Shown here in pieces: positions 33,885 to 61,142 of a stretch of DNA of 64,000 nucleotides. Each line of letters starts with the position of its first letter. The stretch's first letter is position 1. The translations under genes were made by a program, and so were the position numbers. The stretch comes from Calditrichia bacterium (lineage in GTDB: Bacteria > Calditrichota > Calditrichia > RBG-13-44-9 > J075), in the NCBI GenBank assembly GCA_965227145.1, contig OZ245730.1:451661-515660 (forward strand). Direction: 5' to 3'. Under the pieces are notes generated by a model. It searched no databases. It saw only the letters and a list, made by a program, of their open reading frames with translations, and had not been told where the DNA came from.

Positions 33885-33966
33885 GCCCGGGTGGTGGAAT
33901 TGGCAGACACGCATGACTTAGGATCATGTGCCGAAAGGCGTGGAGGTTCGAGTCCTCTCCCGGGTA
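33885..33966 (+). tRNA. tRNA-Leu (anticodon TAG)
   Basis: Acceptor stem GCCCGGG/CCCGGGT with a G1-U72 wobble. D-arm GGTGGAATTGG. Anticodon stem CATGA/TCATG with loop cTTAGga. Long variable arm GCCGAAAGGCGTG. T-arm GGAGG-TTCGAGT-CCTCT. Discriminator A. CCA is not encoded. Confidence 0.85.
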
Positions 33967-34193
33967 CTGAATAAAAACAACTACTTACAGACACACCTGA
34001 CTTTACAGAATTTCTCTTGCTCCAAACTTGCTCTATTTGCGTTTTAAGAAAAAGCCCCTTGTAGAGGCTAATCTGGTGGTCGCCAAGATTAATTGCCGTA
34101 ATTGGCTGCGCTCGTTCAAGGGGCAAAATGTATAATTAATCCTGGCGACCGGCTTCAATATACAAACCTGCCTTCCGTTTTACTATACCCACT

Positions 34194-35417
34194 TTACCGG
34201 TACATAGTTATGATTTTCGGCGTGGCTGTGAGATAGGTTTCGGTCGTGACCTTCAGGTCGGTATGCCCGAGGATCTGCGAAAGGGCATACACATCCCCGC
34301 GGCGGTTCTCCAGAAAGTTGACCGCGAAAGTATGCCGGAGGCTGTGGATCGAAACGTTCTCCTGGAGATGGCACTTCATTTTGGCTACCCGGAAAAATTC
34401 GTTGACGCTGTTCCGGGAGCTGATCTCGAAAAACAGGTATCCGTCGAAGGCGCGCCGGCGCCAGGATTCGGCGTTTTTGTTTCCGGAGTCAAACAGCAGC
34501 TCGTTCAGCTTTTGGGGATCGCTCATAATCGCCCGGCGGCGTTCAATGATTTCCATAACATCGTTCACCGGCACCCAGCGGGCCTTTTCCTTGAACTTCC
34601 GGGAGCCCTTGCCAATCACCCTCAGGAAGTGCCGGGTTTCGCCGTCGATATCGTTGGTCCGGAGGCGGTTGATGTTCACGTCCAGTATCTCGCTTCTGCG
34701 GAGCCCGGTTTTTAGCCCGAACTCAAAAAAGTCGAGATGCCAGGAAACCTCGCTTTTTTCCAGATACCGGCGGATTTTTTGGATTTCGCTTTCCTCCAGA
34801 TACCTGGGCGAGGTATCCACGTTGAGCAGCGGAAAGCCGATAAACGGGTTGACAGGTATCAACCCGAGTTTTCTGGCATGGCTGAACGCCGAGCGCAAGG
34901 TGCGCAGGTGGACGTTGATCGATGTTGGCTTATAGGGCTTGCCGAATTTGGTGGTGGAGCCAAGCAGGGTATCAATAAAGTGCTGGACGGCGTTCCGGCT
35001 GATTTCCGAAAGCAGGCGCTGCTCCCCAAAAACGGTGATGAGCAGCTTGGTGCTTTGGTTGTCCGTGTCGAATGTGTTCTGGGAAATGTTGCCTCGCTCG
35101 ATTTCCTTTTCCCGGTGGTCCAAGTAGAGCCTGCGGAACTTGCCGAGCGTCATTTTATTCAGATGCGGCAGGTATTCCTTTAGGTTGAAGGACTCCAGCG
35201 CCACCTCGCCCTGGATTTTCCGGAGCGCCTTTTCTGCGACGGCTAGCGCCTTACGGGTGTCGGTTCGGAGGTCAACGTGCTTAATTGTAATGCTTTTGGT
35301 GGAGCCGTCTTGAAATGTAATGAGAATATACGGGCGCTTTCTGCCGGTCCACGGCAGGCTTGCCAGAACCTGCTCCGGCGATGGCTTCAGCTGGACATAG
35401 CGAATCCGGTTATTCAT
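34194..35417 (-). CDS. int: tyrosine-type site-specific integrase
   Basis: C-terminal catalytic motifs (HSLRHTFAV…LGHTDLKVTTETYL). 407 aa. Lies adjacent to the tRNA. Confidence 0.85.
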   Translation of the reverse strand: MNNRIRYVQLKPSPEQVLASLPWTGRKRPYILITFQDGSTKSITIKHVDLRTDTRKALAVAEKALRKIQGEVALESFNLKEYLPHLNKMTLGKFRRLYLDHREKEIERGNISQNTFDTDNQSTKLLITVFGEQRLLSEISRNAVQHFIDTLLGSTTKFGKPYKPTSINVHLRTLRSAFSHARKLGLIPVNPFIGFPLLNVDTSPRYLEESEIQKIRRYLEKSEVSWHLDFFEFGLKTGLRRSEILDVNINRLRTNDIDGETRHFLRVIGKGSRKFKEKARWVPVNDVMEIIERRRAIMSDPQKLNELLFDSGNKNAESWRRRAFDGYLFFEISSRNSVNEFFRVAKMKCHLQENVSIHSLRHTFAVNFLENRRGDVYALSQILGHTDLKVTTETYLTATPKIITMYR

Positions 35418-35873: not shown

Positions 35874-36293
35874 ATGGAGGTTACTTTGAAGATCGTAACA
35901 GCAACCCAGCAGCAAGTCAAGTTTATTTTGGCGCCGGCAATGGCCGGCTTTCCATCGCCGGCGGATGACTATCTGGAGGGCAGCCTGGATCTGACCCAGC
36001 TGATGATTTACCACCCGGCCGAAACCTACCTGTTCAATGTCAAGGGTAACTCGATGGTAGATGCGCATATTGACGACGGGGACATGCTTTTAGTGGACCG
36101 GGCGATTAAGCCCCAGAACGGGGATCTGGTTCTGGCGAAGCTAGACGGCTGTTTTCTTGTTAAAAAGTATTTCAACAAGGGCAGCTATGTTGTCCTGGCG
36201 TCATGCAATAAGGACTACGAGCCCATCCGGATTGAGGAGGGGCGGGAGTTTGAGGTGTTTGGGAAGGTAATATTTGCGATACGGCCTAGGTAA
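35874..36293 (+). CDS. UmuD-like S24 peptidase domain protein (no HTH, no adjacent umuC)
   Basis: 139 aa. The protein carries the GFPSPADDY cleavage-site region, the Ser nucleophile in GNSM and the Lys in LVKKYF. It is colinear with UmuD/LexA C-domains. Confidence 0.75.
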   Translation: MEVTLKIVTATQQQVKFILAPAMAGFPSPADDYLEGSLDLTQLMIYHPAETYLFNVKGNSMVDAHIDDGDMLLVDRAIKPQNGDLVLAKLDGCFLVKKYFNKGSYVVLASCNKDYEPIRIEEGREFEVFGKVIFAIRPR

Positions 36294-36466: not shown

Positions 36467-37138
36467 TTAACTATTAAATATCTGATTAAAATTATAGAAG
36501 CAAGTCGGTTCGCTATTGTTCTTATTGTACTGCTTAAATTTCTTTGTGAGATTTGAAATAGCAATATACTTTGACATACTGTCACAGGTCTTTGATTTTC
36601 TTGCTTTTTGTAAAATTTTTAGTTGCACATCTTCAATTGAAATTAGACCAACTCCATTATTTTTCAAGATTTGGAGATCAACATTTTTAACATATCTTGA
36701 ATGTATTGCAAGGTAAGAATAGTCCGAAAAGTAACTATACCTAAGTGCTTGGTAAAAGCCCCCCCGCCAATCTTTAACTTTTACTTCTACCGAAGAAAGA
36801 GAGGGTAACTTTGAAAAATCTATATAATAATTAATAAAAATCGAGTTGTTGTTTACTATTAATAAATTTTTGCTAATTAGTTCTTTGACTATGTTGTCTG
36901 TTTTTCTTTTTGCTAACTTAGATTGGCTGTAAAGGTCATAAGTGTTTTCAATGCGATTTTCAACAATTGCGTTATATATTTTCAAGGTATAATAATCGTT
37001 GATATATGGGCTGTTGACTTTTTTATCCAAGAAAGCGATATCCGGAATTCCTATACCCATCCTAACCTCATTGGCATAGACAACTTTGCAACGTTCCAGA
37101 ACGTTATTAAATGTTGCGACTAGCTCATTTTCTTTCAT
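36467..37138 (-). CDS. hypothetical protein, possible PD-(D/E)xK-type nuclease, co-operonic with kinase fusion
   Basis: Starts 3 nt after the kinase stop on the same strand and is AT-rich. Candidate motifs GIGIPDIAF…VEVKVK…QALRY (hPD…ExK…QxxxY), but the spacing is atypical. Confidence 0.5.
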   Translation of the reverse strand: MKENELVATFNNVLERCKVVYANEVRMGIGIPDIAFLDKKVNSPYINDYYTLKIYNAIVENRIENTYDLYSQSKLAKRKTDNIVKELISKNLLIVNNNSIFINYYIDFSKLPSLSSVEVKVKDWRGGFYQALRYSYFSDYSYLAIHSRYVKNVDLQILKNNGVGLISIEDVQLKILQKARKSKTCDSMSKYIAISNLTKKFKQYNKNNSEPTCFYNFNQIFNS

Positions 37139-37140
37139 TA

Positions 37141-39198
37141 CTATATACCATAAAGTTTTCTTAGTTTTTCAATTACTAACTGCCAGTTATTCAAAAATTG
37201 ATAACTTTCAGGCTTAAATATAGCCTTAAGAGCCTTGTAATAATTTAAACTTTCGACTATATCGTTATTGAGTTTATCCAATCTTTCTGTCGTTGTTTTT
37301 TGTAACAATATATCAATTTCATTTTGGATACGATACAAAAAGTGCTTTTTGGTGTTTTTGTCAATAATTATGTCTTCAGGTGGTTTTCCCTTGCAATAGG
37401 GACAATTGCAGGCCAAGTTTTTTCCAGTGGCTCCTGCGAGAATTGCAAAAAGTTTTGATGGGTCTTTTCGATTAATAGGGACATTCGCAAAAAGCTCAGG
37501 TATATAATATCTAACAAATAAATTATATGAATCTGTTCTGTCTTTGTATAAATCCTCATAAAAACTTTCAAATCTTGCGCTACCAGACTCAAAGCCATGG
37601 ATTCCAAATGCAAGTAGTAACAAGCCAATTAAGCCTACTCTACCGGCAATGACTGGTTTACCAGAAGAAACTTGTAATGTTCTGAGTGTCTGAATGAAGT
37701 GGTATAGCTCTGAAGTTGATGATTGATGATTTATGCAATCGACATAAATAAGATAGCCGTCACATGGGAGACCAGTTAAAATGTTAATAAAATATTCTTT
37801 TTCAACCTTACTTGTTAATATCTCTGAACGAATTGAAAAACCTGCGATTAGAGGAATTGAAATATTGTTTTCATCTAGATACATCCTAGTTTGTTTTATT
37901 AGGCGATAATCGACATTAAACCAGTTTAGCTGCCTATCGTGTTTTATTGTTATGTGTTCAGAATTATTACTTACGTGAAAGGGGCTGACTAAATAAGTGG
38001 GATCATGTTCCAGTTGAGTATCAATAACGCTTTTTATATATTGGTATCTTTTTGTGTCATCATCTAAGTCAGATAACTCGATTTTTGAATAATTACTAGG
38101 CGCATAAGGTAGTTGTGTTAAACCTTTTACATCTGAAAAAGTATCATATGCTAAACGCATTGTTGCAGGGTCAAACATTAAATTTATTTTGGGGTTTTGT
38201 AGAATTTTTAGCAAATTTTTTTGTTGATATTGATGGTTGATCGGGAAAATAGCATTTTTTATTTTATACCCGTCATTGAGGTACTCAGTTAATACTTGCT
38301 TCTCGTTCCAAGTTCTCAAATAAAGCCCTGGTTCAAAGTAATTACGATTATGCTTTGGTAGTTGGTTATTTGTGATATTAAAGTATTTTTTTATATCAGA
38401 TATCGAATTTGGTCGATTATGTACAGTTTTTTCAAGAAGATGATAAATCAACTTTTCATAGGACGCATCTAAATCTGGTCGATATAATAATATAGAATCC
38501 GGCCTATTATTTAGAATTCTATAAAATAATTCAGGAAGTGAGGTTGCTCTCCCATAGGGACTTACTTTAGTAAGAATTTCAAAGTATAACACTCCTAAGG
38601 AATAATAATCAGAACGGTAATCTATATTTTTTGAATCATTTATTTGTTCTGGTGACATATACAGTGGGCTACCAATTTGGCTTCCTGTGCTGGTTAGCGA
38701 GGAATAATCAATAAGCTTTGAAAGCCCAAAGTCGAGAAGTTTTATTTCACCTGCGTTTGTTAAGTAGATATTCTCAGGCTTTAAGTCCCTATGAATTATT
38801 CCCTTAGAGTGTATTGCATTTAATCCTTCTAGTATTTGAAAAAAGATGTCCTTTTCATTAATTTGTCGATTATTCCTTATTATATCACGGATATCTGAGC
38901 CCTCAAGGAATTCCATCACGACATAGATATAAATTTGTGAATTTTCTATTAATTCTCCACTCTCAATGTATTTGATCACATTTGGGTGATCGATTCTTGT
39001 TAAGGTTTCAATCTCTCTTGAAATACGGTTATTCGCCCCTCGTGTAAATTCCTCATAAACATATTCTCTATTAAATATTTTAATGGCATAGGTTTTAGAA
39101 GTAGTATCCCTAATGCATTTATAGACTGATCCAAATGCACCTTTTCCAATAAAAGAGGATATTGAATAGCATCCAATTTTTTTTCCTAACATTACCAT
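37141..39198 (-). CDS. Hanks-type Ser/Thr protein kinase fused to a C-terminal tRNA-guanine-transglycosylase(TGT)/DpdA-like domain
   Basis: Kinase subdomains: GKGAFGSVYKC (G-loop), YAIKIF (VAIK), HRDLKPENIYL (catalytic loop), DFGLSK (DFG), GSPLYMSPE (APE). The ~400-aa C-terminal domain contains LMFDPATM (cf. TGT DSGGYQ), GKPVIAGRVG…GIHGFES (cf. TGT KPxYLMGVG…GIDMFD) and a Zn-type CNCPYC (CxCxxC) followed by HFLYRIQNEI (cf. TGT His and HNL helix). Confidence 0.7.
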   Translation of the reverse strand: MVMLGKKIGCYSISSFIGKGAFGSVYKCIRDTTSKTYAIKIFNREYVYEEFTRGANNRISREIETLTRIDHPNVIKYIESGELIENSQIYIYVVMEFLEGSDIRDIIRNNRQINEKDIFFQILEGLNAIHSKGIIHRDLKPENIYLTNAGEIKLLDFGLSKLIDYSSLTSTGSQIGSPLYMSPEQINDSKNIDYRSDYYSLGVLYFEILTKVSPYGRATSLPELFYRILNNRPDSILLYRPDLDASYEKLIYHLLEKTVHNRPNSISDIKKYFNITNNQLPKHNRNYFEPGLYLRTWNEKQVLTEYLNDGYKIKNAIFPINHQYQQKNLLKILQNPKINLMFDPATMRLAYDTFSDVKGLTQLPYAPSNYSKIELSDLDDDTKRYQYIKSVIDTQLEHDPTYLVSPFHVSNNSEHITIKHDRQLNWFNVDYRLIKQTRMYLDENNISIPLIAGFSIRSEILTSKVEKEYFINILTGLPCDGYLIYVDCINHQSSTSELYHFIQTLRTLQVSSGKPVIAGRVGLIGLLLLAFGIHGFESGSARFESFYEDLYKDRTDSYNLFVRYYIPELFANVPINRKDPSKLFAILAGATGKNLACNCPYCKGKPPEDIIIDKNTKKHFLYRIQNEIDILLQKTTTERLDKLNNDIVESLNYYKALKAIFKPESYQFLNNWQLVIEKLRKLYGI

Positions 39199-39369
39199 CC
39201 CTTTCCTTTAAAGAAGTCGTTACACATATTTTTAATACTACTGAAAAAATTTAAGTTCTTCGAAAGATCCTCATAAGTATTAAATGTTTGGAGTTTTTAG
39301 AATTAGATAAAAAACAAAGCTTAACAAGAATAATTCTTTGGGTTATTAAAAGTTAAATAAAAGAGGATT

Positions 39370-40365
39370 TCAGTCCTGCCAGGCAGTCAGAACTCCATTC
39401 TCAAAGTAAACATAAGTGCGATAATAAACCCACTGCTCATGAACTCCCCACGATCCAACCGACCTGTTAATATCACGAGGATCACCCCAGCTTGCACGTA
39501 CCATTTCCCTGCTCATTCCAATATAAATTTCTCCATTTAAGATTTGATTTTTTCTAGAACGTGATAATTTTGGATTGTCTCTAACGAATTTTTGTCTTCT
39601 TAAATCACTTTCAGAAATTAAAGCCACTTCACGATAGCTTACAAGATCCTTGCTTATCCAAGCATCTGTATACTTTTGTTTTAACTGTTTAAGGGTAGAC
39701 GGGGTAGTGTTATTATTTTTAATACGAATCTTAATCCAGCTTCCCGCTTCAAGATTTTTATAAACAATTTCTCCTTGCCTAAGAGTTGATACAATTTTGC
39801 CACCAGTTGATGATGTATCTCGTACATTGGCAGTTAGTGAGCTAATCCATAACGGTGTTGATTCATACTCAATGTCAAGTTTTTTGGCATTAGTGCTCTC
39901 GGCTTTTCGGTCTATTGAGCTTTTAAATGTGCCCTCATTATTAACATGAAAGCTTAACTCTCGTTTGATAGATGCAAGTTCATTTTGTAGTTTTGTAAAT
40001 GAGGATATGTCTGGTGAGTCTTTAATGAATGATTCAAAAATAAAACCCTTTTTACCTTGAAACTCAACAAAGGCATACTTTTGTGATTCATGTCTGTTTT
40101 CAATAAAACGAAATAAATGGATTTCATCTCCGGAACTAATTTTAGCAATTTTTTTTGAACTACGTGATCCTTCTCTGAATAAACTCGCGCCATATACCAG
40201 CTTGACGGTTAGCCCTTCATTATTGATCCTATTAATTTGTGTTTCTAATTTTTTTTCAAGAAGTGTTAAGCTATCAAGTTTAGCCACATATAAGCGATTT
40301 GCTACGTCGGAGTACTGCGCATGGCAAATCAGGCTAACAAATAACAATAATATCGTAATTCTCAT
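39370..40365 (-). CDS. secreted protein with C-terminal BamE/SmpA_OmlA-like domain
   Basis: Signal peptide MRITILLLFVSLICHAQ. C-terminus GMSREMVRASWGDPRDINRSVGSWGVHEQWVYY…NGVLTAWQD resembles the BamE fold signature. AT-rich. Confidence 0.5.
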   Translation of the reverse strand: MRITILLLFVSLICHAQYSDVANRLYVAKLDSLTLLEKKLETQINRINNEGLTVKLVYGASLFREGSRSSKKIAKISSGDEIHLFRFIENRHESQKYAFVEFQGKKGFIFESFIKDSPDISSFTKLQNELASIKRELSFHVNNEGTFKSSIDRKAESTNAKKLDIEYESTPLWISSLTANVRDTSSTGGKIVSTLRQGEIVYKNLEAGSWIKIRIKNNNTTPSTLKQLKQKYTDAWISKDLVSYREVALISESDLRRQKFVRDNPKLSRSRKNQILNGEIYIGMSREMVRASWGDPRDINRSVGSWGVHEQWVYYRTYVYFENGVLTAWQD

Positions 40366-40418
40366 CTTTTCCCTCGCCGAATGACAAAAAATTAGATATT
40401 TATTTATTTCAAAAGTCC

Positions 40419-40862
40419 TTATCTCCCCAAAAACTTCTCAATCTCCTTCCGGTCCGGATCGGTGATGCTGCCGAGCTGGGTCAGCTTTGCCTTCGTCTCG
40501 AAGATGACCTCCTCGCACTGCTGCAGAGCTTCCGGGCTTACGGCGTTGGATTCCTCCGCGTCCATGTGAAATCCCAGCATAAAGTTCAGAAAGTTGTTCA
40601 GGATGTGCTGGCTTGACCTAACGGACGCCAGAAACACCTCCCTTTTTTCCTGCTCCTTTTTCGCCATCTGCTCAAAATGGTGCTTGATAAGTATATATAG
40701 CATCGCAGTAGTTGCGACGACAAAAAGCCACCCCTTGAACGTTTGGGCTACGGTAACAAGATCAAGGGTTTTAAATAAAAGAGCTACGGCTTTATCTGAA
40801 AGCAAAATCCATATAGTGCCAATCATGAAATAGATCAGCGGGATTTTAAGCTGAGGCTTCAT
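40419..40862 (-). CDS. small membrane protein (2 TM helices + helical C-terminal domain)
   Basis: Hydrophobic helices IYFMIGTIWILL and WLFVVATTAMLYILI. 147 aa. Confidence 0.4.
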   Translation of the reverse strand: MKPQLKIPLIYFMIGTIWILLSDKAVALLFKTLDLVTVAQTFKGWLFVVATTAMLYILIKHHFEQMAKKEQEKREVFLASVRSSQHILNNFLNFMLGFHMDAEESNAVSPEALQQCEEVIFETKAKLTQLGSITDPDRKEIEKFLGR

Positions 40863-40973
40863 TAACAGTTACTCCGATTTGTGGTTTCATAGATCACAGC
40901 ACAGATGGGTAGCTGAATGTAGCCAGTTTTTATATCGAAAGAAATCCGCGATTACGGAGCTTTGGAGTGATTT

Positions 40974-41011
40974 TCTCTGTAATTACGGAGAGCTTCTCTG
41001 TAATTACGGAG
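40974..41011. repeat. direct repeats TCTCTGTAATTACGGAG x2 (21-bp phasing) plus third ATTACGGAG copy at 40951
   Basis: 17-bp units at 40974-40990 and 40995-41011. Core ATTACGGAG also at 40951-40959. They lie between the membrane-protein gene and the cI-like gene. Confidence 0.6.
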
Positions 41012-41047
41012 GGCAATATGTCAAAATACAGAGGCGCAAACGGCCTT

Positions 41048-41440
41048 TTAGTCGAGGTCGTCTACCATCCCCTTTAAAAATTCCAGAATGCTTTCCCGCT
41101 TTTTTTCGGGCATCCGCATGAGCAGGTCGTAGATTTCTTTCATGTCCGGGCGGAGTTCGTTTTGGGGTATTGGCTTTGATTTCTCAAAGTATACCAAATC
41201 GCCATCCTCAATAATTTCACGATTAAACGCCTCAGCTATTGACCTTACAGTTGCTTCCTGAACGTTTTGCGTTTCGCCAATGATGATTTTTCTTAGTCCT
41301 GGGTAAGACATGCCTACTCGTTTTGCCATTTCGGGAATTGACAAACGCTCCTCTTTTCGAAGCTCCTCTATGGCCTCCCTGATGTTCGAGTATCGCATAT
41401 CAAAATATAGCACTTGTCTAATCCTTTGTAAATGAAACAC
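41048..41440 (-). CDS. XRE/cI-like HTH transcriptional regulator (prophage repressor candidate)
   Basis: HTH segment IPEMAKRVGMSYPGLRKIIIGE. Divergently oriented from the rightward early genes, with an operator-like palindrome in the intergenic region. Confidence 0.6.
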   Translation of the reverse strand: MFHLQRIRQVLYFDMRYSNIREAIEELRKEERLSIPEMAKRVGMSYPGLRKIIIGETQNVQEATVRSIAEAFNREIIEDGDLVYFEKSKPIPQNELRPDMKEIYDLLMRMPEKKRESILEFLKGMVDDLD

Positions 41441-41783: not shown

Positions 41784-42122
41784 ATGCCAAAGCCAATTAA
41801 CCCATTTGATGTGCGGGAGCTGGTCCGGAAGGGGCATGTGCTTCCGCTGCTGCTGAACCAGCAGAATACCGCGGCTTTTATCGGCGTTTCGGAATCGCTG
41901 CTGAAGGTCTGGATTCAGGACGGCGTGTTTCCCGTCCGCCCGTTCAAAAACGGCTGGTACCGGCGAATTGACGTGGAAACCTACATCAACCAGCCTATTG
42001 AAAAAACGGACGACGAGCTGGTTGATGAGATATACTCAGATTTTCAAGCCGAGATGGGATCACACCACAGAAAGGAGGGCAGAGATTTTGGCGCGGCGGG
42101 CTCAAACGCTCTGAACGGCTGA
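41784..42122 (+). CDS. AlpA/excisionase-like HTH DNA-binding protein
   Basis: Segment LLNQQNTAAFIGVSESLLKVWIQDGVFPVRPF resembles MerR/AlpA-type excisionase HTHs. Confidence 0.45.
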   Translation: MPKPINPFDVRELVRKGHVLPLLLNQQNTAAFIGVSESLLKVWIQDGVFPVRPFKNGWYRRIDVETYINQPIEKTDDELVDEIYSDFQAEMGSHHRKEGRDFGAAGSNALNG

Positions 42123-48926: not shown

Positions 48927-49859
48927 ATGCCACGCGAAAAAAGAGATACAGTTGAATATTTCCCCCATTACGCCAAGCCTGGCGGGGGGAAAACCAAGCG
49001 GCTGCTGTTCAAGGAGTTCGGTCACGCCGGGAAATCCTGCTGGTTTGAGCTGCTGGAAATCCTCGCGGATTCGGACGGGCACTACCTCGATTTGCGGGAA
49101 GATATCGACTGGCTGGACGTGGTCGAAACGCTCCAGATCGACGAGGAAACGGCGAAACGCTTCTTTGATTTCCTGGTCCGGCTGGGAAAAATCGACGCCG
49201 AATTGTGGGAAAAGAAGGTCGTTTGGTGCCAAAACCTGGTGAACGAGGTTGAGCACGTTTACCGTAACCGGCGTAGAAAAGCGCCGAAAAAGCCGGTGAT
49301 TGATGATTCCAACAGCCAAATCATTCAAGAAACCGAGCCATCGGACGATTCCGGCGGCGTTTCTACGGTAGAAACGCCGGATTTCAGTCCAGAAATGCAA
49401 CAGAGCAAAGTAGAGCAAAGAAGAGCAAAGCAAAGTAGAGAAGAGCAAAGTAGAGCAAAGCAAACCCGCGAAAGTAGCGTAGGAACATCCGCCGGCGCTG
49501 TGAGCCGAAACGGGACCTCGCCGCCCGGCAACGGTTTGCTTCGTTTGCCTCCTGACGGAGATATTTTTGCTACTTTGCTTTTTGTCCTGCGGAAGGATAA
49601 CGGCTCGCGGCATCCCGGAGCGAAAGCCAACGCGGAGAAGAAGGTCGCGGAGCTGCGGAAAACGCAGGATCCCGCCTGGGTATCGGAAAAGCTGGAGCAC
49701 TACAGCTACTGCAAGAAGTTTCGACCGGAGCTTTTGGGCGATAAGCCGACCGGCTACCTGATCGCGTCCATCGAGAAGCGCTACCCGCCGCCCTTTGGCT
49801 ACGACGAGCACGTCCGGCAGCAGGTGCAGGAATCGTTGAAACGGGCATCTCCGGGATAG
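48927..49859 (+). CDS. phage replisome organizer/replication initiation-like protein containing internal iterons
   Basis: Position between the helicase and RusA. The N-terminal domain looks like phage Lin1244-type replication organizers (from memory, unverified). The internal 10-bp-phased repeat encodes the SKVEQRRAKQSREEQSRAKQ stretch. Confidence 0.4.
   Translation: MPREKRDTVEYFPHYAKPGGGKTKRLLFKEFGHAGKSCWFELLEILADSDGHYLDLREDIDWLDVVETLQIDEETAKRFFDFLVRLGKIDAELWEKKVVWCQNLVNEVEHVYRNRRRKAPKKPVIDDSNSQIIQETEPSDDSGGVSTVETPDFSPEMQQSKVEQRRAKQSREEQSRAKQTRESSVGTSAGAVSRNGTSPPGNGLLRLPPDGDIFATLLFVLRKDNGSRHPGAKANAEKKVAELRKTQDPAWVSEKLEHYSYCKKFRPELLGDKPTGYLIASIEKRYPPPFGYDEHVRQQVQESLKRASPG
49402..49460. repeat. 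iteron-like tandem repeats: AGAGCAAAG at exact 10-bp phasing (5 full copies + partial)
   Basis: Copies at 49402, 49412, 49422, 49442, 49452 (49432 degenerate). Inverted CTTTGCT-type copies and an AT-rich tract lie at 49531-49590. Confidence 0.65.
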
Positions 49860-52370: not shown

Positions 52371-52519
52371 AACAACAAGGAAAATGTCTGGTATTTGATC
52401 AAAACTCTTTTTACGCCGTTGATTCTTTCTAAATAATAACAAGCAGTTGAATTATTGGATCAATTTTCATAAATATGCTTAAGAATTGAAACAAGAATAG
52501 CGTGGAGAATATTTGCTTG

Positions 52520-53443
52520 ATGAAAAATGGACTATATATGGATTCAGAACATATTTTAATAAAAGGGGACACCCTTAAAAATTTAAAAAAAATCGAATCG
52601 GACAAATTCGATTTAACAATCACGTCTCCACCTTACAACATTGGTAAGGCATATGAAACCAAAATGTCAATTGAAAAATACTTAGAGCTCCAGGAAGAGG
52701 TGATTGCGGAGCTGGTTAGAGTTACGTCGAGCCGAGGTAGCATTTGCTGGCAGGTTGGTAATTATGTGGATAATGGTGAAATTTTTCCTTTAGATATTTA
52801 CTACTATCAAATTTTCAAAAAGCTAAATCTAAAGTTAAGAAATAGGATAATCTGGCACTTTGGACACGGGCTGCATGCGTCTAACCGATTTTCGGGTAGA
52901 TACGAAACTATTTTGTGGTTTACAAAAACTGATAACTATATTTTTAACCTTGATGACGTTAGAATCCCCTCTAAATACCCCGGAAAAAGACACTTTAAGG
53001 GCCCAAACAAAGGCAAGCCATCTGGTAACCCAAAGGGTAAAAACCCTTCGGATATATGGGAAATCATTATGGGCGACTGGGAAAAGGGGCTTTGGGATAT
53101 TCCTAACGTAAAATCAAATCATCCTGAGAAAACGTCTCACCCCTGCCAGTATCCGGTTGAGCTAATTGAAAGATGCATATTAGCTCTAACTAATAACGAC
53201 AGCTGGGTTTTAGATCCATATGTAGGGGTAGGATCGACGGCAATAGCAGCGATCAAAAACGGGCGTAGTGTAGTCGGGATTGACAAAGAAGAAAATTATA
53301 TAAAAATTGCCAACGAGCGAATTCGGGACTTCAAAGTTGGAAAACTTAGACTAAGACCTATCAATAAGCCCATACACAAGCCAAGCCCAAATGACAAAGT
53401 TGCGCGAATTCCGGACGAATGGAATATAGGTAACCCAAAATGA
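52520..53443 (+). CDS. beta-class amino-DNA methyltransferase (N4-cytosine/N6-adenine, SPPY motif)
   Basis: FDLTITSPPYNIG catalytic motif near the N-terminus. AdoMet motif in the C-terminal part (VLDPYVGVGSTAIAA). Start ambiguous (GTG 52502 / ATG 52520 / ATG 52538). Confidence 0.8.
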   Translation: MKNGLYMDSEHILIKGDTLKNLKKIESDKFDLTITSPPYNIGKAYETKMSIEKYLELQEEVIAELVRVTSSRGSICWQVGNYVDNGEIFPLDIYYYQIFKKLNLKLRNRIIWHFGHGLHASNRFSGRYETILWFTKTDNYIFNLDDVRIPSKYPGKRHFKGPNKGKPSGNPKGKNPSDIWEIIMGDWEKGLWDIPNVKSNHPEKTSHPCQYPVELIERCILALTNNDSWVLDPYVGVGSTAIAAIKNGRSVVGIDKEENYIKIANERIRDFKVGKLRLRPINKPIHKPSPNDKVARIPDEWNIGNPK

Positions 53444-57915: not shown

Positions 57916-58353
57916 GTGGCACGCAGTAAATACAACGAGGATTTCCCGCTATTGGCGGAAGGCTACGCGCGGGAGGGGCTCAACGATGAACAAATCGCGG
58001 CGAAGTTGGGAATTTCAAAGCCAACTTTTTATGAGTATCAAAAGCGCTATCCAGACTTTTTTAACTCCATAAAAAGGGGTAAGGCGCCGGTTGATACCGA
58101 GGTCGAGAATTCGCTGCTGCGGAACGCGCTTGGCTTTGAGTATGAGGAAACAACCCAGGAAATCAGGATCATCAATGGCAAAGAATATAAAACTATCCGG
58201 AAAACGAAAAAGTTTGTTGTGCCCAGCACGACTGCCCAGATCTTCTGGCTTAAGAACCGCAAGCCCCACAGGTGGCGGGATAAGCAGGAAATTCTTATTG
58301 GCAATGATGTTGATATCAACGTTTCTTTGCGGGAAACCGATGCCGACGATTAA
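57916..58353 (+). CDS. terminase small subunit
   Basis: HTH segment LNDEQIAAKLGISKPTFYEYQKRY. Sits immediately upstream of, and overlaps, the large-subunit gene. GTG start. Confidence 0.6.
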   Translation: MARSKYNEDFPLLAEGYAREGLNDEQIAAKLGISKPTFYEYQKRYPDFFNSIKRGKAPVDTEVENSLLRNALGFEYEETTQEIRIINGKEYKTIRKTKKFVVPSTTAQIFWLKNRKPHRWRDKQEILIGNDVDINVSLRETDADD

Positions 58354-59551
58354 TGTCACTATCGACCCTGCCGTTTTTAACGCCACCTACCTGCCTTACC
58401 TGGATTATACCGGCAAGCGCTTTGAGGTGCTTTACGGCGGCGCAGGCTCGGGCAAGTCCGTGTTTATTGCCCAGCGCAAGGTTTACCACCACCTGAAGTA
58501 TAAGGGGCGGAAAACGCTGGTTATCCGGAAGGTCGGGCGGACGCTGCGGCACTCGGTTTTTTCGGAGGTCGCCGGCGTTATCAGCAGCTGGAACCTCGGG
58601 CAGATTTTCCAGGTGAACAAGTCCGATCTGGAGATCCATAACCGCGTGAACGGTAACCAATTTATTTTCAGCGGGTTAGATGATGTTGAAAAGATGAAGT
58701 CCATCGCGGGGATCACCGATATCTGGATTGAGGAAGCCAGCGAGATCAGCGAGGACGATTTCAAGCAGCTGAACCTGCGGCTTCGCGGCGCATCCAAGGC
58801 GATGAAGCAGATCACCCTTTCGTTCAACCCGGTTTCGGCGCTGTCCTGGCTGAAGAAGCGCTTTTTTGACCGGCGGGACGAGAATGTTCTGAAACTCAAA
58901 ACGACCTACATCGACAACCGTTTTCTGGATCCGGACGACGTGGCGGAGATCGAGGCGCTGAAGGAAATCGATCCGGTGTATTGGCGGATTTACGGCTTGG
59001 GCGAGTGGGGCGTGCTGGGCGACCTGGTTTATACCAACTGGGAAATCCGGGATTTTGACCCGGATCTGAAGCTTTTCCCGCGGCAGTATAACGGGCTGGA
59101 CTGGGGCTTTAACGATCCCGCGGCTGCGATCAAGGTGGCTTTCAAGGATGCGGAAATTTATGTCCTGAACGAGCTGTATGTGAAGGGCATGGACAACAGC
59201 GAGCTGATGGCGGAGGCGCCGGCGGTGTTCAGCAAGGCGGGCGATTCGATTATCGCGGACAGCTCGGAGCCGGCGCGAATCAAGGAGTGGAAAAAGAACG
59301 GCTGGAAAATCCGGGGCGCGAAAAAGGGCAAGGACTCGGTGTCCTTCGGCATCGATTTTGTGCGGCGCCACAGGGTGATCATCCATCCAACCTGCCAGAG
59401 TTTTATCAACGAAATCCAGGCGTATTGCTACCGGAAGGATAAGGACGGCAACACGCTGGAGGAGCCGGTCGATTTTAACAACCATTTGATGGATGCGCTC
59501 CGCTATGCCCTGGAGCCGATTGCCCACGAAAGACAACTGAGGTTTGCCTGA
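58340..59551 (+). CDS. terminase large subunit (PBSX/XtmB-like)
   Basis: Walker A (YGGAGSGKSVFIAQRK) and an ATPase/nuclease two-domain length (404 aa). The ATG at 58340 is preferred over the longer upstream extension. Confidence 0.8.
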   Translation: MPTINVTIDPAVFNATYLPYLDYTGKRFEVLYGGAGSGKSVFIAQRKVYHHLKYKGRKTLVIRKVGRTLRHSVFSEVAGVISSWNLGQIFQVNKSDLEIHNRVNGNQFIFSGLDDVEKMKSIAGITDIWIEEASEISEDDFKQLNLRLRGASKAMKQITLSFNPVSALSWLKKRFFDRRDENVLKLKTTYIDNRFLDPDDVAEIEALKEIDPVYWRIYGLGEWGVLGDLVYTNWEIRDFDPDLKLFPRQYNGLDWGFNDPAAAIKVAFKDAEIYVLNELYVKGMDNSELMAEAPAVFSKAGDSIIADSSEPARIKEWKKNGWKIRGAKKGKDSVSFGIDFVRRHRVIIHPTCQSFINEIQAYCYRKDKDGNTLEEPVDFNNHLMDALRYALEPIAHERQLRFA

Positions 59552-59699: not shown

Positions 59700-61142
59700 A
59701 TGGATTTGCCGTTGCCGAAATCGTTGAGTGAGATGATTGCTGAAAACGGGCAGGCGCCCGGCATCACCCGGATTATCCGGGATCTGATCGAGTCCGATCT
59801 GGGATCCGAGGAGAAGCAAAAAGCCTTTGAGGGGATTGCCTACTATAACGGCGATCACCAGATCCGCTACAAGAAGCGCTATTATTACGATAAGCACAAG
59901 AAGCGCCAGGAGGACACGATCAAGGAGAACGCCCGCCCGGTGAATAACTTCCACGCGGATTTTGTGGACGAGAAGGTTTTCTATGTGCTGGGGCAGCATC
60001 CCGGATTTACCTCGGTGAGCGAGCAGCTCGCCGGCGATCTGGACAAGGCGCTGGACCTGAGCTTTTACGAAACGCTGCAGAACGCGGTCGAGGGCGCCTC
60101 GAACAAGGGCAGCGAGTTTATTTATGTGTATGTGGAAAACAACGCTTTCAAATATACCGTGATGCCTTTCGAGGAGCTGATCATCATACGGGACCAGAGC
60201 ATTGCCAAAAATATTACGGACGTGGTGCGCTACTACCTGGTGGAGGTGATCACCGAGGGCGACAAAAAGCTCCGCTACCGGGTGGAGTGGTATAAGCCGG
60301 AGGCGGTGACCTACTTTATGGAGCAGGCGGACGGGAAGTTTGAGCTGGACGAGAACGAGCCGGTGAATCCCAAGCCCTATTTGACGCGGGTCCGGGAGGT
60401 GGAGCGCGTGAATATTCCGGTGGACTCGGCGGCCTGGGGGGCGCCGGCGCGGCTGCCGTTTATCGAGGTGGCCAATAACCGGCGCCGGCAGACAGACCTG
60501 GAGCGGATCAAGAGCCTGCAGGATTTATACAATGTGATTGAGGCGGGCTTTTTTGACAATATCGCGGATATGCAGGAGCTGGTGACGGTGGTGAAGGACG
60601 CGGTGGGCAGCGATCCGGCGGAGGTGCTGGAAAACCTGCGGCACTACAAGCTGGTGCTGGCTGAGGAGGGCGGCGGGATTGAGGCGGTGAAGGCGGAGAT
60701 TCCGGTGGAGGCGCGGGAAACGGCGCTGAAGCGGCTATACCGGGATATCCACCACTTTGGCAAGGCGGTGCTGTTTGAGCCGGACAAGTATGCCAGCGCG
60801 CCCTCGGGCGTGGCGCTGAAGTTCCTATATTCCCGGCTGGATATGAAGGCGGACGACGTGATCCTCTCGCTGCGGGCGGCGCTGAATGCCTTTGTGGAAT
60901 TTTTTGTGATTTTCCAGAAGTGGGCGAAGGGCGTTGACTATGGCGAAAATGCCTTTGTGGAGTGGACGTTTAACAAGTCTCAGATTTTTAACGAGGCGGA
61001 GCAGGTGGAGAGCTGCCAGAAGTCCAAGGGGATTGTGTCGGATGAAACGATTCTGGCGCACCATCCGTTTGTTTCGGATGTTCAGGAGGAGCTGAAGCGG
61101 GTGGAGACGGATCAGGATTTGAAATTGAACCTAGAAAATTAG
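59700..61142 (+). CDS. portal protein (SPP1 gp6-like) candidate
   Basis: 480-aa acidic protein directly after the terminase large subunit. Typical order and size. Confidence 0.5.
   Translation: MDLPLPKSLSEMIAENGQAPGITRIIRDLIESDLGSEEKQKAFEGIAYYNGDHQIRYKKRYYYDKHKKRQEDTIKENARPVNNFHADFVDEKVFYVLGQHPGFTSVSEQLAGDLDKALDLSFYETLQNAVEGASNKGSEFIYVYVENNAFKYTVMPFEELIIIRDQSIAKNITDVVRYYLVEVITEGDKKLRYRVEWYKPEAVTYFMEQADGKFELDENEPVNPKPYLTRVREVERVNIPVDSAAWGAPARLPFIEVANNRRRQTDLERIKSLQDLYNVIEAGFFDNIADMQELVTVVKDAVGSDPAEVLENLRHYKLVLAEEGGGIEAVKAEIPVEARETALKRLYRDIHHFGKAVLFEPDKYASAPSGVALKFLYSRLDMKADDVILSLRAALNAFVEFFVIFQKWAKGVDYGENAFVEWTFNKSQIFNEAEQVESCQKSKGIVSDETILAHHPFVSDVQEELKRVETDQDLKLNLEN

What the first reader, a model, noticed from the sequence alone, without database searches (positions are those of the whole stretch)
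36467..37138. Translationally coupled 223-aa partner of the kinase fusion with possible PD-(D/E)xK/RecB-like nuclease motifs
The gene starts 3 nt after the kinase stop. It contains GIGIPDIAF, VEVKVK and QALRY, reminiscent of the hPD…ExK…QxxxY nuclease signature, although the PD-to-ExK spacing is unusually long. A nuclease effector paired with a sensor kinase would fit an abortive-infection logic.
Basis: inference. Interest (0 to 1): 0.6.

Follow-up and report, generated by a model that had tools for sequence, protein, structure and literature searches.

The report
Nuclease partner of a kinase–TIM-barrel cassette
The 223-aa gene almost certainly encodes a restriction-endonuclease-fold DNA nuclease with a DNA-binding winged helix inserted in its core, and it belongs to a widespread, unnamed three-part module (Ser/Thr kinase, TGT-like TIM barrel, nuclease) that looks like an undescribed anti-phage system carried here by a prophage.

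Summary
The ORF is real: minus strand 36467-37138, 223 aa, ATG 2 nt after the stop of a 685-aa kinase gene. E118, K120 and Q130 are invariant, and E3, E24, D33 and Y134 are at least 90% conserved, in 135 relatives down to about 20% identity.

A confident AlphaFold model (pLDDT 87.5) has the alpha-beta-beta-beta-alpha-beta core. Its best fold matches are MmcB/DUF1052 PD-(D/E)xK proteins (PDB 3dnx). The long PD-to-ExK spacing is a complete winged helix-turn-helix inserted between strands 2 and 3, and it is the fastest-evolving segment.

The family is large (2782 representative clusters) and has no Pfam, NCBIfam or PADLOC model.

New here: the kinase's C-terminal 400 aa is a TIM barrel most like tRNA-guanine transglycosylase, with a CxCxxC…H motif. 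This TIM domain, not the kinase, is the near-constant neighbour of the nuclease: 112 of 118 informative loci. The kinase may be fused, encoded separately, or replaced by a PIN_3 RNase.

The cassette is a low-GC insert in the integrase–repressor region of a prophage. Elsewhere the module lies beside R-M, AbiE and reverse-transcriptase genes. A defence role and the mechanism are inferred, not shown.

The parts
36467..37138 (-). Gene for the 223-aa partner: a PD-(D/E)xK-fold nuclease with an inserted winged helix-turn-helix
   Evidence: ORF. AF2 model has pLDDT 87.5 and pTM 0.82. Foldseek top PDB hit is 3dnx (E 5.7e-4, prob 1.0, TMt 0.66). BFVD hits are MmcB-like proteins. The family holds 2782 representative clusters.
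37016..37138 (-). N-terminal half of the nuclease core (res 1-41): helix 1 with E3, strand 1 followed by E24, and GIGIPD with D33 at the start of strand 2
   Evidence: Secondary structure. Conservation: E3 130/135, E24 131/135, D33 134/135.
36824..37006 (-). Winged helix-turn-helix inserted between core strands 2 and 3 (res ~45-105)
   Evidence: Model elements are H49-60, H66-73, H77-89, E93-96 and E99-102. Foldseek hits to MexR, MarR, DtxR and Z-alpha/beta have rmsd 1.4-3 A over 53-62 residues. The profile hits MarR-type regulators in the PDB (E 1.5e-4). TrmB, MarR and HTH_24 match family members in Pfam. It is the most variable segment: 22% mean pairwise identity against 44-49% in the core.
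36524..36811 (-). C-terminal half of the nuclease core (res 110-205): strand 3 with S116-x-E118-x-K120, helix with W124, Q130, R133 and Y134, then strand 4 FSDYSYLA
   Evidence: E118, K120 and Q130 are invariant in 135 sequences. pLDDT is 91-97 here.
37139..37143 (-). Junction: kinase stop TAG (37143-37141) plus 2 nt before the partner ATG (37138)
   Evidence: In 36 homologous loci the gap is -14 to +18 nt.
38407..39168 (-). Hanks-type Ser/Thr protein kinase domain (res 11-264 of the 685-aa protein)
   Evidence: Pfam Pkinase E 2.8e-54. G-loop, AIK, HRDLKPEN, DFG and SPE motifs are present. PADLOC PD-T4-6 and mad6 models match only this domain.
37144..38346 (-). C-terminal TIM-barrel domain (res 285-685), TGT-like. 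It includes CxCxxC…H (C597, C599, C602, H619 = nt 37342-37410) and the family-invariant D343 (nt 38170-38172)
   Evidence: AF2 pLDDT 84, pTM 0.85. Foldseek finds TIM barrels, with the highest TM-scores and coverage for tRNA-guanine transglycosylase (4jbr TMq 0.55/TMt 0.58 over 412 columns). Cys and His are invariant in 44 fusions. D59 and P122 (domain numbering) are invariant in 29 fused and stand-alone homologs. No Pfam, PADLOC or PDB sequence hit.
36467..40400 (.). Low-GC block (about 30-34% G+C) that carries the cassette, inside DNA of 44-60% G+C
   Evidence: Composition profile.
33885..35417 (.). tRNA-Leu (33885-33967, +) and the adjacent tyrosine integrase (34194-35417, -): the left end of the prophage that carries the cassette
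   Evidence: ARAGORN. Phage_integrase E 4.5e-16. Downstream phage genes.

Best explanation
The 223-aa protein is a metal-dependent DNA endonuclease of the PD-(D/E)xK (restriction-endonuclease) fold. Its motif set is RecB-like (E…hPD…ExK…QxxxY). A rapidly evolving winged helix-turn-helix inserted between core strands 2 and 3 probably supplies DNA binding and specificity. The protein is the DNA-cutting member of a conserved three-function module. The other parts are a TGT-like TIM-barrel domain, which is the near-constant partner, and a Hanks-type Ser/Thr kinase. In this window the kinase and TIM domain are fused in one 685-aa protein and translated just ahead of the nuclease. The cassette is a horizontally acquired low-GC insert in the lysogeny region of a prophage. 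It most likely acts as an anti-phage or anti-MGE system. In that model the TIM-barrel domain reads a nucleic-acid feature, possibly a flipped or modified base as in TGT/DpdA enzymes. The kinase would transmit or amplify the signal, or act as a second toxic effector. The nuclease would cut DNA. Shown: the gene, the conservation, the fold, the domain anatomy and the co-inheritance. Inferred: nuclease activity, the defence role, and who senses and who executes.
For: Fold: the AF2 model is confident (pLDDT 87.5) and has a-b-b-[wHTH]-b-a-b topology. The best PDB match is 3dnx/DUF1052, which is classified as PD-(D/E)XK (PMC3424549; PMC3045609). The best viral matches are MmcB-like proteins. Among sub-threshold Pfam hits to core-only sequences, the only family hit by more than one member (2 of 25) is PDDEXK_9, and three further single-member hits are to families I know as PD-(D/E)xK (HSDR_N, HSDR_N_2, Herpes_UL24). 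Catalytic set: E118, K120 and Q130 are invariant, and D33, E24, E3 and Y134 are at least 95% conserved, in 135 sequences. wHTH; it is the fastest-evolving part. Module: a TIM-domain gene lies next to the partner in 112 of 118 loci with enough flank. The kinase is fused in 40 loci, separate in 35, and absent in 10 that have room for one; of those 10, most carry an ORF of PIN size (Pfam PIN_3 confirmed in 5 loci) and two look decayed. Homology of stand-alone TIM proteins to the kinase C-terminus: hhalign E 2.5e-5 over 344 columns, and an HMM of the stand-alone proteins hits every fusion at E 1e-20 to 1e-34. Gene order and orientation change (tandem or convergent) while the association persists, across Bacillota, Bacteroidota, Aminicenantes, Ignavibacteriae, Desulfobacteraceae, Phycisphaerae, CPR and Bdellovibrionota. 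Tight coupling. Context: the cassette lies between the integrase and a CI-like repressor of a prophage, on the lysogeny strand, and its GC is about 32% against 44-60% around it. Elsewhere it lies beside type I and type III R-M, AbiEi/Eii, C5 methylases, RT/ThiF/Vsr, integrases and a conjugative element. Intact partners without a working TIM/kinase gene exist (L013, L027, L088), so the nuclease alone is apparently tolerated. That fits a nuclease that is gated or acts only on foreign DNA.
Confidence: 0.55

Rival explanations
1. Restriction-modification-like system. The TGT-like TIM domain exchanges or modifies a base in host DNA, as DpdA does. The wHTH-nuclease restricts DNA that lacks the mark. 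The kinase only regulates.
For: The TIM domain resembles TGT/DpdA-type base-exchange enzymes and has an invariant Asp at the end of a barrel strand. A two-gene core in convergent orientation with overlapping 3' ends is common for R-M pairs. TGT homologs mark DNA in Dpd systems (PMC12839542).
Against: Intact orphan nuclease genes without TIM or kinase (L013, L088, L027) should be lethal for an R enzyme that has lost its M. No deazapurine-synthesis or DpdB/DpdC genes recur nearby. There is no sequence similarity to TGT. An R-M pair has no obvious need for a kinase or a PIN.
Confidence: 0.15
2. The partner is mainly a DNA-binding regulator and kinase substrate. It would be a repressor released by phosphorylation, as CapS is by CapK. 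It would control the cassette or prophage genes and would not be a cutting effector.
For: It has a central wHTH. Some sources annotate relatives as 'predicted transcriptional regulator'. A kinase-repressor pair that controls immune operons is documented (PMC13373217). A PP2C phosphatase sits next to one relative.
Against: The full catalytic set (D, ExK, Q, Y) is invariant over 135 sequences while the wHTH drifts. This is the opposite of what a pure DNA-binding regulator would show. No conserved downstream operon exists that it could regulate. The one candidate phosphosite tested failed (S116).
Confidence: 0.1
3. Addiction or toxin-antitoxin-type stabilisation module of mobile elements. A nuclease or kinase toxin is neutralised by the other parts, and the module is kept because its loss kills the host, not because it blocks phages.
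For: The module is always on variable, mobile contexts: a prophage, a conjugative element, a plasmid, integrases. The genes are tightly coupled. A PIN toxin occurs in place of the kinase.
Against: Frameshifted and partial copies in which only one component survives are found (L013, L027, L039, L040, L046, L135). Many TA-like modules are themselves defence systems, so this reading overlaps with the main one.
Confidence: 0.1
4. Housekeeping or SOS DNA-repair nuclease of the MmcB type that happens to lie next to a signalling kinase.
For: The closest structural neighbours are MmcB/DUF1052 proteins. An orphan UmuD-like gene lies next to it in the window.
Against: No sequence-level membership in PF06319. 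Distribution is patchy and horizontally transferred, with foreign GC. Linkage to TIM and kinase or PIN is obligate. The UmuD-like neighbour is not conserved elsewhere.
Confidence: 0.05

Closest known systems
MmcB / DUF1052 (Pfam PF06319; PDB 3dnx, SPO1766)
   Same: Closest fold. It is a small single-domain PD-(D/E)xK protein and the best Foldseek match in the PDB (E 5.7e-4) and in BFVD. It is listed as a PD-(D/E)XK family in PMC3424549.
   Different: No detectable sequence similarity. MmcB has no inserted wHTH. It is a stand-alone, SOS-linked repair gene (my recollection of the MmcB literature, not checked here) and is not paired with a kinase or TIM protein.
RecB-family / Cas4-type nucleases (motifs hPD, ExK, QhxxY)
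   Same: Same order of motifs, including the Q-x-x-x-Y helix 10 residues after the ExK lysine (Q130, Y134).
   Different: No HMM match to PDDEXK_1 or Cas4 models. No Fe-S cysteines. A wHTH is inserted between motifs II and III.
[quoted passage not shown]
   Same: The same 'grammar': a PD-(D/E)xK nuclease (NERD), an active Ser/Thr kinase and wHTH DNA-binding modules acting together in a defence system (PMC12839542).
   Different: PglW is one 1400-1600-aa protein inside a six-gene BREX locus with PglX and PglZ. Here the nuclease is a separate small protein of a different family, there are no BREX genes, and a TGT-like TIM barrel is the constant partner.
PD-T4-6 / Stk2-type single-gene kinase defence systems; MADS MAD6
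   Same: The kinase domain matches these PADLOC and NCBIfam models strongly (E to 1e-64). They are kinases used in phage defence.
   Different: Matches cover only residues ~1-290. The 400-aa TIM domain and the nuclease partner have no counterpart in those systems. Automated tools would mislabel this gene as PD-T4-6.
tRNA-guanine transglycosylase / DpdA
   Same: TIM barrel with a C-terminal CxCxxC…H motif at nearly the same position. TGTs give the highest TM-scores and full-length structural alignments. TGT homologs act on DNA in Dpd defence and occur in BREX-related systems.
   Different: No sequence-level relationship. Catalytic Asp equivalents are not identified. The Cys cluster is lost in many stand-alone homologs. 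A TGT-like domain fused to a kinase was not found in the searchable literature.
Mrr-type type IV restriction enzymes (wHTH + PD-(D/E)xK)
   Same: They combine a winged helix with a PD-(D/E)xK catalytic domain in a small defence nuclease.
   Different: In Mrr the wHTH is N-terminal, not inserted within the catalytic core (my knowledge). No Mrr_cat HMM match was found.

Membership tests
PD-(D/E)xK phosphodiesterase superfamily | alpha-beta-beta-beta-alpha-beta core fold | tested here: met
PD-(D/E)xK phosphodiesterase superfamily | Conserved acidic residue at strand 2 and (D/E)xK on strand 3 | tested here: met
   D33 is present in 134/135 sequences; E118 and K120 in 135/135. They map to the start of strand 2 and to strand 3 of the model.
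PD-(D/E)xK phosphodiesterase superfamily | Metal-dependent phosphodiester cleavage | not testable with these tools
   Needs a biochemical assay.
MmcB-like / DUF1052 (PF06319) | Match to the family HMM at or above the gathering score | tested here: not met
   No PF06319 hit for the window protein, for 135 relatives, or for 25 core-only sequences, even at E<=5.
RecB-like nuclease family | Motif IV QhxxY on the helix after ExK | tested here: met
   Q130 is present in 135/135 and Y134 in 128/135 sequences.
RecB-like nuclease family | HMM match (PDDEXK_1 / Cas_Cas4) | tested here: not met
   None found. Only sub-threshold PDDEXK_9, HSDR_N and UL24 hits.
Winged helix-turn-helix (MarR/TrmB-like) | Three-helix bundle plus beta-hairpin wing, with profile similarity | tested here: met
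   Model elements span residues 49-102. The profile hits PDB 2d1h (E 1.5e-4) and MarR proteins. TrmB, MarR and HTH_24 each match 10 of 135 members.
PD-T4-6 defence system (for the upstream gene) | Single-gene kinase system; full-length match to the model | tested here: not met
   PADLOC matches stop at residue ~290 of 685. The gene is always linked to a TIM domain and a nuclease.
tRNA-guanine transglycosylase / DpdA family (for the kinase C-terminal domain) | TIM barrel with a C-terminal Zn site CxCxxC…H | tested here: met
   Best TM-scores are to TGT structures. C313, C315, C318 and H335 are invariant in 44 fusions. Zn binding itself was not tested.
tRNA-guanine transglycosylase / DpdA family (for the kinase C-terminal domain) | Sequence-level membership (PF01702) and the catalytic Asp pair | tested here: not met
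   No Pfam hit at E<=1. No PDB sequence hit with a 29-sequence profile at E<=10. Only one Asp (D59 of the domain) is invariant. Correspondence to the TGT catalytic residues is unresolved.
Any catalogued anti-phage system (PADLOC-DB v2.0.0) | HMM match of the partner or the TIM protein | tested here: not met
   Zero families for the partner, for remote partners, and for fused or stand-alone TIM proteins.

The most novel reading that the evidence does not exclude
This is a widespread, previously undescribed anti-phage system. It has at least 2,700 representative partner clusters across many phyla. Its constant core is a TGT-like TIM-barrel protein, a base-flipping or base-exchanging reader of nucleic acid, plus a PD-(D/E)xK nuclease with an internal fast-evolving wHTH. 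The core is coupled interchangeably to a Hanks kinase or a PIN RNase (one locus has a PP2C phosphatase next to the partner). That would be a new sensing principle for defence: a transglycosylase-fold domain used as an infection sensor wired to eukaryote-like phosphosignalling.
Probability: 0.4. Interest if true: 0.8.

Novelty: new variant of a known kind. Interest (0 to 1): 0.62.

Why it matters
If the module is a defence system, it adds a large unannotated family to the bacterial immune repertoire. It would also give a first function to a TGT-like TIM barrel fused to a Ser/Thr kinase. The interchangeable kinase and PIN slots offer a natural experiment on how phosphosignalling is wired to nucleases in immunity, a question still open for PglW and Stk2-type kinases. 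On the practical side, current pipelines will call the kinase 'PD-T4-6' and the nuclease 'hypothetical' or 'transcriptional regulator'. The alignments and the architecture census here are enough to build proper models.

Tried and rejected
1. Phosphosite idea. S116 lies two residues before the catalytic Glu on the same face of strand 3. It was Ser in every kinase-linked partner and Ala or Gly in every kinase-less one among the first 54 loci. The 80-locus metagenome set refuted this: most partners with a fused or separate kinase have A116. The earlier pattern was a clade effect.

2. Sequence-level links to solved structures. The single sequence, the full profile and a core-only profile gave only wHTH hits or nothing. 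The TIM profile gave nothing.

4. Broad alignments A2 and A5 were too diverse for locus scans. I used A1 and a sub-clade alignment (A8) instead.

5. A third conserved gene. Neighbours within 5 kb of 37 loci are heterogeneous. C5 methylases (5 loci) and AbiEi/Eii (4 loci) recur but are not constant. The L008 methylase is unrelated to the others.

6. attR or a direct repeat of the tRNA-Leu 3' end was not found inside the window.

7. Promoter and terminator scans around the cassette were at chance level.

8. Literature. No paper in the searchable library combines a TGT-like domain, a Ser/Thr kinase and a nuclease. 'PD-T4-6' in S. thermophilus is a PASTA kinase and is unrelated. CapK/CapS is a different kinase type.

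9. Identification of the host organism failed: there is no exact record for the protein and no names in its cluster.

Full report
**Observation.** The finding's coordinates delimit a real ORF on the minus strand: 36467-37138, 223 aa, ATG start. On the same strand, directly upstream, lies a 685-aa gene (37141-39198). Its residues 11-264 are a Hanks-type protein kinase domain (Pfam Pkinase E 2.8e-54). The junction reads GGT ATA TAG TA ATG.

**Is it more than chance?** A word-indexed search found only 8 close homologs. A profile of those, scored against 1.84 billion representative proteins, found far more: 2782 at E<=1e-3, 703 at E<=1e-10, nearly all 205-270 aa. I aligned 135 full-length members sharing as little as about 20% identity.
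- Invariant: E118, K120, Q130.
- Near-invariant: D33 (134/135), A131 (133), E24 (131), E3 (130), Y134 (128), R133 (126), W124 (125).

No Pfam, NCBIfam, PHROG-with-function or PADLOC model covers the protein. Source annotations of relatives are 'hypothetical protein' or 'predicted transcriptional regulator'.

**Fold.** AlphaFold2 on the 8-sequence alignment gave a confident model: pLDDT 87.5, pTM 0.82, with 91-97 over residues 111-200.
- Order of elements: helix 3-16, strand 20-23, strand 34-37, then H49-60, H66-73, H77-89 and hairpin 93-102, then strand 114-120, helix 124-134, strand 140-146, and further elements.
- D33 opens strand 2. E118-x-K120 lie on strand 3. Q130 and Y134 lie on the following helix. 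This is the canonical PD-(D/E)xK arrangement with RecB-type motif IV.
- Foldseek against the PDB gave one significant full-length hit, 3dnx (SPO1766): E 5.7e-4, prob 1.0, TM 0.66 on the target.
- 3dnx represents DUF1052/PF06319. It is catalogued as PD-(D/E)XK family 92 by Steczkiewicz et al. (PMC3424549) and is used as a PD-(D/E)XK reference structure in PMC3045609.
- Against BFVD, two of the six hits at E<=1e-3 are proteins annotated as MmcB-like DNA-repair proteins, which I take to be the same family (TM up to 0.65, rmsd 4.2-4.3 A).
- Core-only sequences give only sub-threshold Pfam hits. PDDEXK_9 is the only family hit by more than one member (2 of 25). Three single-member hits are to families I know as PD-(D/E)xK: HSDR_N, HSDR_N_2 and Herpes_UL24.

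**The long spacer.** All other PDB hits are winged-helix proteins (MexR, MarR, DtxR, MntR, Z-alpha/beta) that superpose on residues ~45-105 at 1.4-3 A. The family profile hits MarR-type regulators in the PDB (E 1.5e-4 to 1e-3). Several members reach TrmB, MarR or HTH_24 Pfam models. The 84-residue gap between PD and ExK is thus a complete wHTH inserted between core strands 2 and 3. It is the fastest-evolving segment, with 22% mean pairwise identity among close homologs against 44% and 49% for the flanking core halves. Such fast change is typical of a specificity or target-recognition element (my inference).

**The upstream gene.** Its C-terminal 400 residues have no Pfam or PADLOC hit.
- They are highly conserved in more than 300 clusters of ~683-aa kinases.
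- The AF2 model (pLDDT 84, pTM 0.85) is a TIM barrel followed by a helical subdomain.
- Among Foldseek hits, tRNA-guanine transglycosylases give the highest TM-scores and the longest alignments: 4jbr 0.55/0.58 over 412 columns, 6yfx 0.47/0.52, and human TGT 8omr.
- The domain carries an invariant CxCxxC…(16)…H. It sits at almost the same position as the TGT zinc site, by my recollection of TGT numbering.
- There is no sequence-level relation to TGT, so I call it TGT-like, not TGT.
- The kinase has all the catalytic motifs. PADLOC PD-T4-6 and mad6 models and NCBIfam MAD6 match the kinase domain only.

**Co-inheritance.** I collected 134 loci that encode partner relatives. The sources were exact look-ups, a scan of GTDB species genomes (39 loci) and a metagenome scan with a remote sub-clade (80 loci). 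I scored all ORFs with HMMs for the partner, the kinase domain and the TIM domain.
- A TIM-domain gene lies next to the partner in 112 loci.
- 16 loci end too close to the partner to tell.
- 6 loci lack a TIM domain despite adequate flanks. One is a decayed partner (L046). One is a weak partner-like hit (L049). Two have a kinase plus an unrecognised 394-457-aa ORF in between (L098, L101). Two are true orphans (L013, L088).

Architectures found:

| Architecture | Loci |
|---|---|
| Kinase-TIM fusion followed in tandem by the partner (the window's type) | 32 |
| Kinase-TIM fusion convergent with the partner | 8 |
| Separate kinase (~265-340 aa) then TIM (~400 aa), convergent with the partner, 3' ends overlapping by about 16 nt | 33 |
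| Separate kinase, tandem with the partner | 2 |
| TIM present, kinase absent although the contig leaves room for one | 10 |
| TIM present, contig ends too soon to see a kinase | 27 |

- Of the 10 loci without a kinase, most carry an ORF of PIN size between TIM and the partner. Pfam PIN_3 was confirmed in five loci (L051, L077, L095, L119, L134; E 1e-10 to 1e-13). Two of the 10 look decayed (L027, L040).
- One locus (L010, fetched again as L092) has a PP2C phosphatase overlapping the partner's start.
- Stand-alone TIM proteins are true homologs of the kinase C-terminus. hhalign gives E 2.5e-5 over 344 columns. An HMM built from the stand-alone proteins hits every fusion at E 1e-20 to 1e-34.
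- Across all of them only D59 and P122 (domain numbering; D343 in the 685-aa protein) are invariant.
- In the fused clade the distance from stop to start is -14 to +18 nt in 36 loci. This supports co-translation.

But the near-constant associate of the nuclease is the TIM-barrel domain. The kinase occupies an exchangeable slot.

**Context.** In the window the cassette is a ~32% G+C block (36.5-40.4 kb) inside 44-60% G+C DNA.
- It lies between a tyrosine integrase next to tRNA-Leu and a CI-like HTH repressor (41048-41440, minus strand).
- Further on come Sak4-like, SbcC-like, helicase, replication-initiator, methyltransferase, large-terminase and portal genes.
- It is therefore a prophage moron, on the same strand as the integrase and repressor.
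- Elsewhere the module sits in a conjugative element beside TraG, TopoIII and a DNA methylase. It also lies beside AbiEi/Eii pairs, C5 methylases and integrases; RT, ThiF and Vsr genes; type I R-M genes; a type III Res gene; and on one Priestia plasmid.
- No deposited phage record carries it. Only three IMG/VR contigs do, and one of those copies is decayed.
- Frameshifted or fragmentary copies occur (L039, L040, L046, L135). Such decay is what I would expect of accessory defence cargo.

**Mechanism (inferred).** The conserved catalytic set argues for an active Mg2+-dependent nuclease. The variable internal wHTH argues for DNA recognition.
- TGT-fold enzymes bind nucleic acid and flip a base into the barrel. 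An invariant Asp at a strand end suggests that the TIM domain binds or processes such a ligand.
- The exchangeable kinase/PIN slot suggests a signalling or second-effector function. This resembles the NERD-nuclease, kinase and wHTH grammar of PglW and some DndF proteins (PMC12839542).
- Intact orphan partners (L013, L027, L088) indicate that the nuclease alone is not lethal. This favours a gated or foreign-DNA-specific nuclease over a classic R-M logic.
- My best model: the TIM domain senses, the kinase transduces or adds toxicity, and the wHTH-nuclease cuts.
- Confidence is about 0.85 for the fold, about 0.55 for the whole statement, and low for the assignment of roles.

**Comparison and novelty.**
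- *Membership:* the protein belongs to the PD-(D/E)xK superfamily by fold and motifs. It does not belong to MmcB/DUF1052, RecB/Cas4, NERD or Mrr by HMM.
- *Module:* it is not PD-T4-6, MADS, BREX or Dpd.
- *Databases and literature:* I found no model in Pfam, NCBIfam or PADLOC v2, and no paper in the searchable library, that describes a kinase plus TGT-like TIM plus nuclease module. Subscription literature and newer catalogues were not searchable.
- *Rating:* a new variant of a known kind, namely kinase-plus-nuclease defence cassettes built from new families.

**Rejected along the way.** A tempting phosphosite hypothesis (S116, on the active-site face of strand 3) held in the first 54 loci. It failed in the 80-locus set, where A116 partners commonly have kinases. 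Promoter, terminator and att-repeat searches gave nothing above chance.

Noticed in passing
window 34194-64000: This part of the window is a prophage integrated next to tRNA-Leu (33885-33967). It carries an integrase, a CI-like HTH (41048-41440, minus strand), a small ORF I take to be Cro/Xis-like (41784-42122, plus strand; not scanned), Sak4-like, SbcC-like, helicase and replication-initiator genes, a DNA methyltransferase (52502-53443), large terminase (58091-59551) and portal (59700-61142). No attR copy of the tRNA end lies inside the window.
   Followed up: partly
window 35874-36293 (+): A 139-aa UmuD-like Peptidase_S24 protein (E 7.9e-28) has no N-terminal HTH and no umuC next to it. It sits between the integrase and the cassette and is not conserved next to the module elsewhere.
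   Followed up: no
window 39370-40365 (-) and 40419-40862 (-): A 331-aa protein with a signal-peptide-like N-terminus and a bacterial SH3_3 domain lies in the same low-GC block upstream of the kinase. Its C-terminus matches phrog_11546. A 147-aa protein that looks membrane-associated by eye follows it, partly inside the block. Neither travels with the module in other loci. Their function is unknown.
   Followed up: partly
window 49401-49470: Five overlapping copies of a ~10-nt unit (AGAGCAAAG-like) lie inside the replication-initiator gene (48927-49859). They look like origin iterons of the prophage.
   Followed up: no
window 37141-39198 (-): PADLOC PD-T4-6, mad6 and MkoA models and NCBIfam MAD6 and PknB models match only the kinase domain (residues ~1-290). 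Automatic defence finders are therefore likely to mislabel this 685-aa protein as a single-gene PD-T4-6 system.
   Followed up: yes
L051, L077, L095, L096, L103, L107, L119, L120, L130, L132, L134; L010 (= L092): These are variants of the module without a kinase. The partner is convergent with a TIM gene, with room for, or an ORF of, a ~145-155-aa PIN_3 RNase in between. Pfam PIN_3 was confirmed in L051, L077, L095, L119 and L134. L130 and L132 end too soon to exclude a kinase. One further locus has a PP2C phosphatase overlapping the partner's start.
   Followed up: partly
L013, L027, L039, L040, L046, L088, L135: These are orphan or decaying copies: an intact partner with no or a truncated TIM/kinase gene (L013, L088, L027), a frameshifted kinase-TIM gene (L039), a kinase split by an insertion with a frameshifted partner (L040), and partner fragments (L046, L135).
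   Followed up: partly
L098:4048-5229 (-), L101:5710-7080 (-): In two high-GC loci a kinase and a partner relative flank a 394-457-aa ORF that neither TIM HMM nor Pfam recognises. It may be a very divergent TIM protein or a replacement.
   Followed up: no
window 40973-41014: A tandem 21-nt direct repeat (TTCTCTGTAATTACGGAGAGC, 95% identical) lies just downstream of the CI-like repressor gene. The first copy overlaps a terminator-like hairpin. Its meaning is unknown.
   Followed up: no
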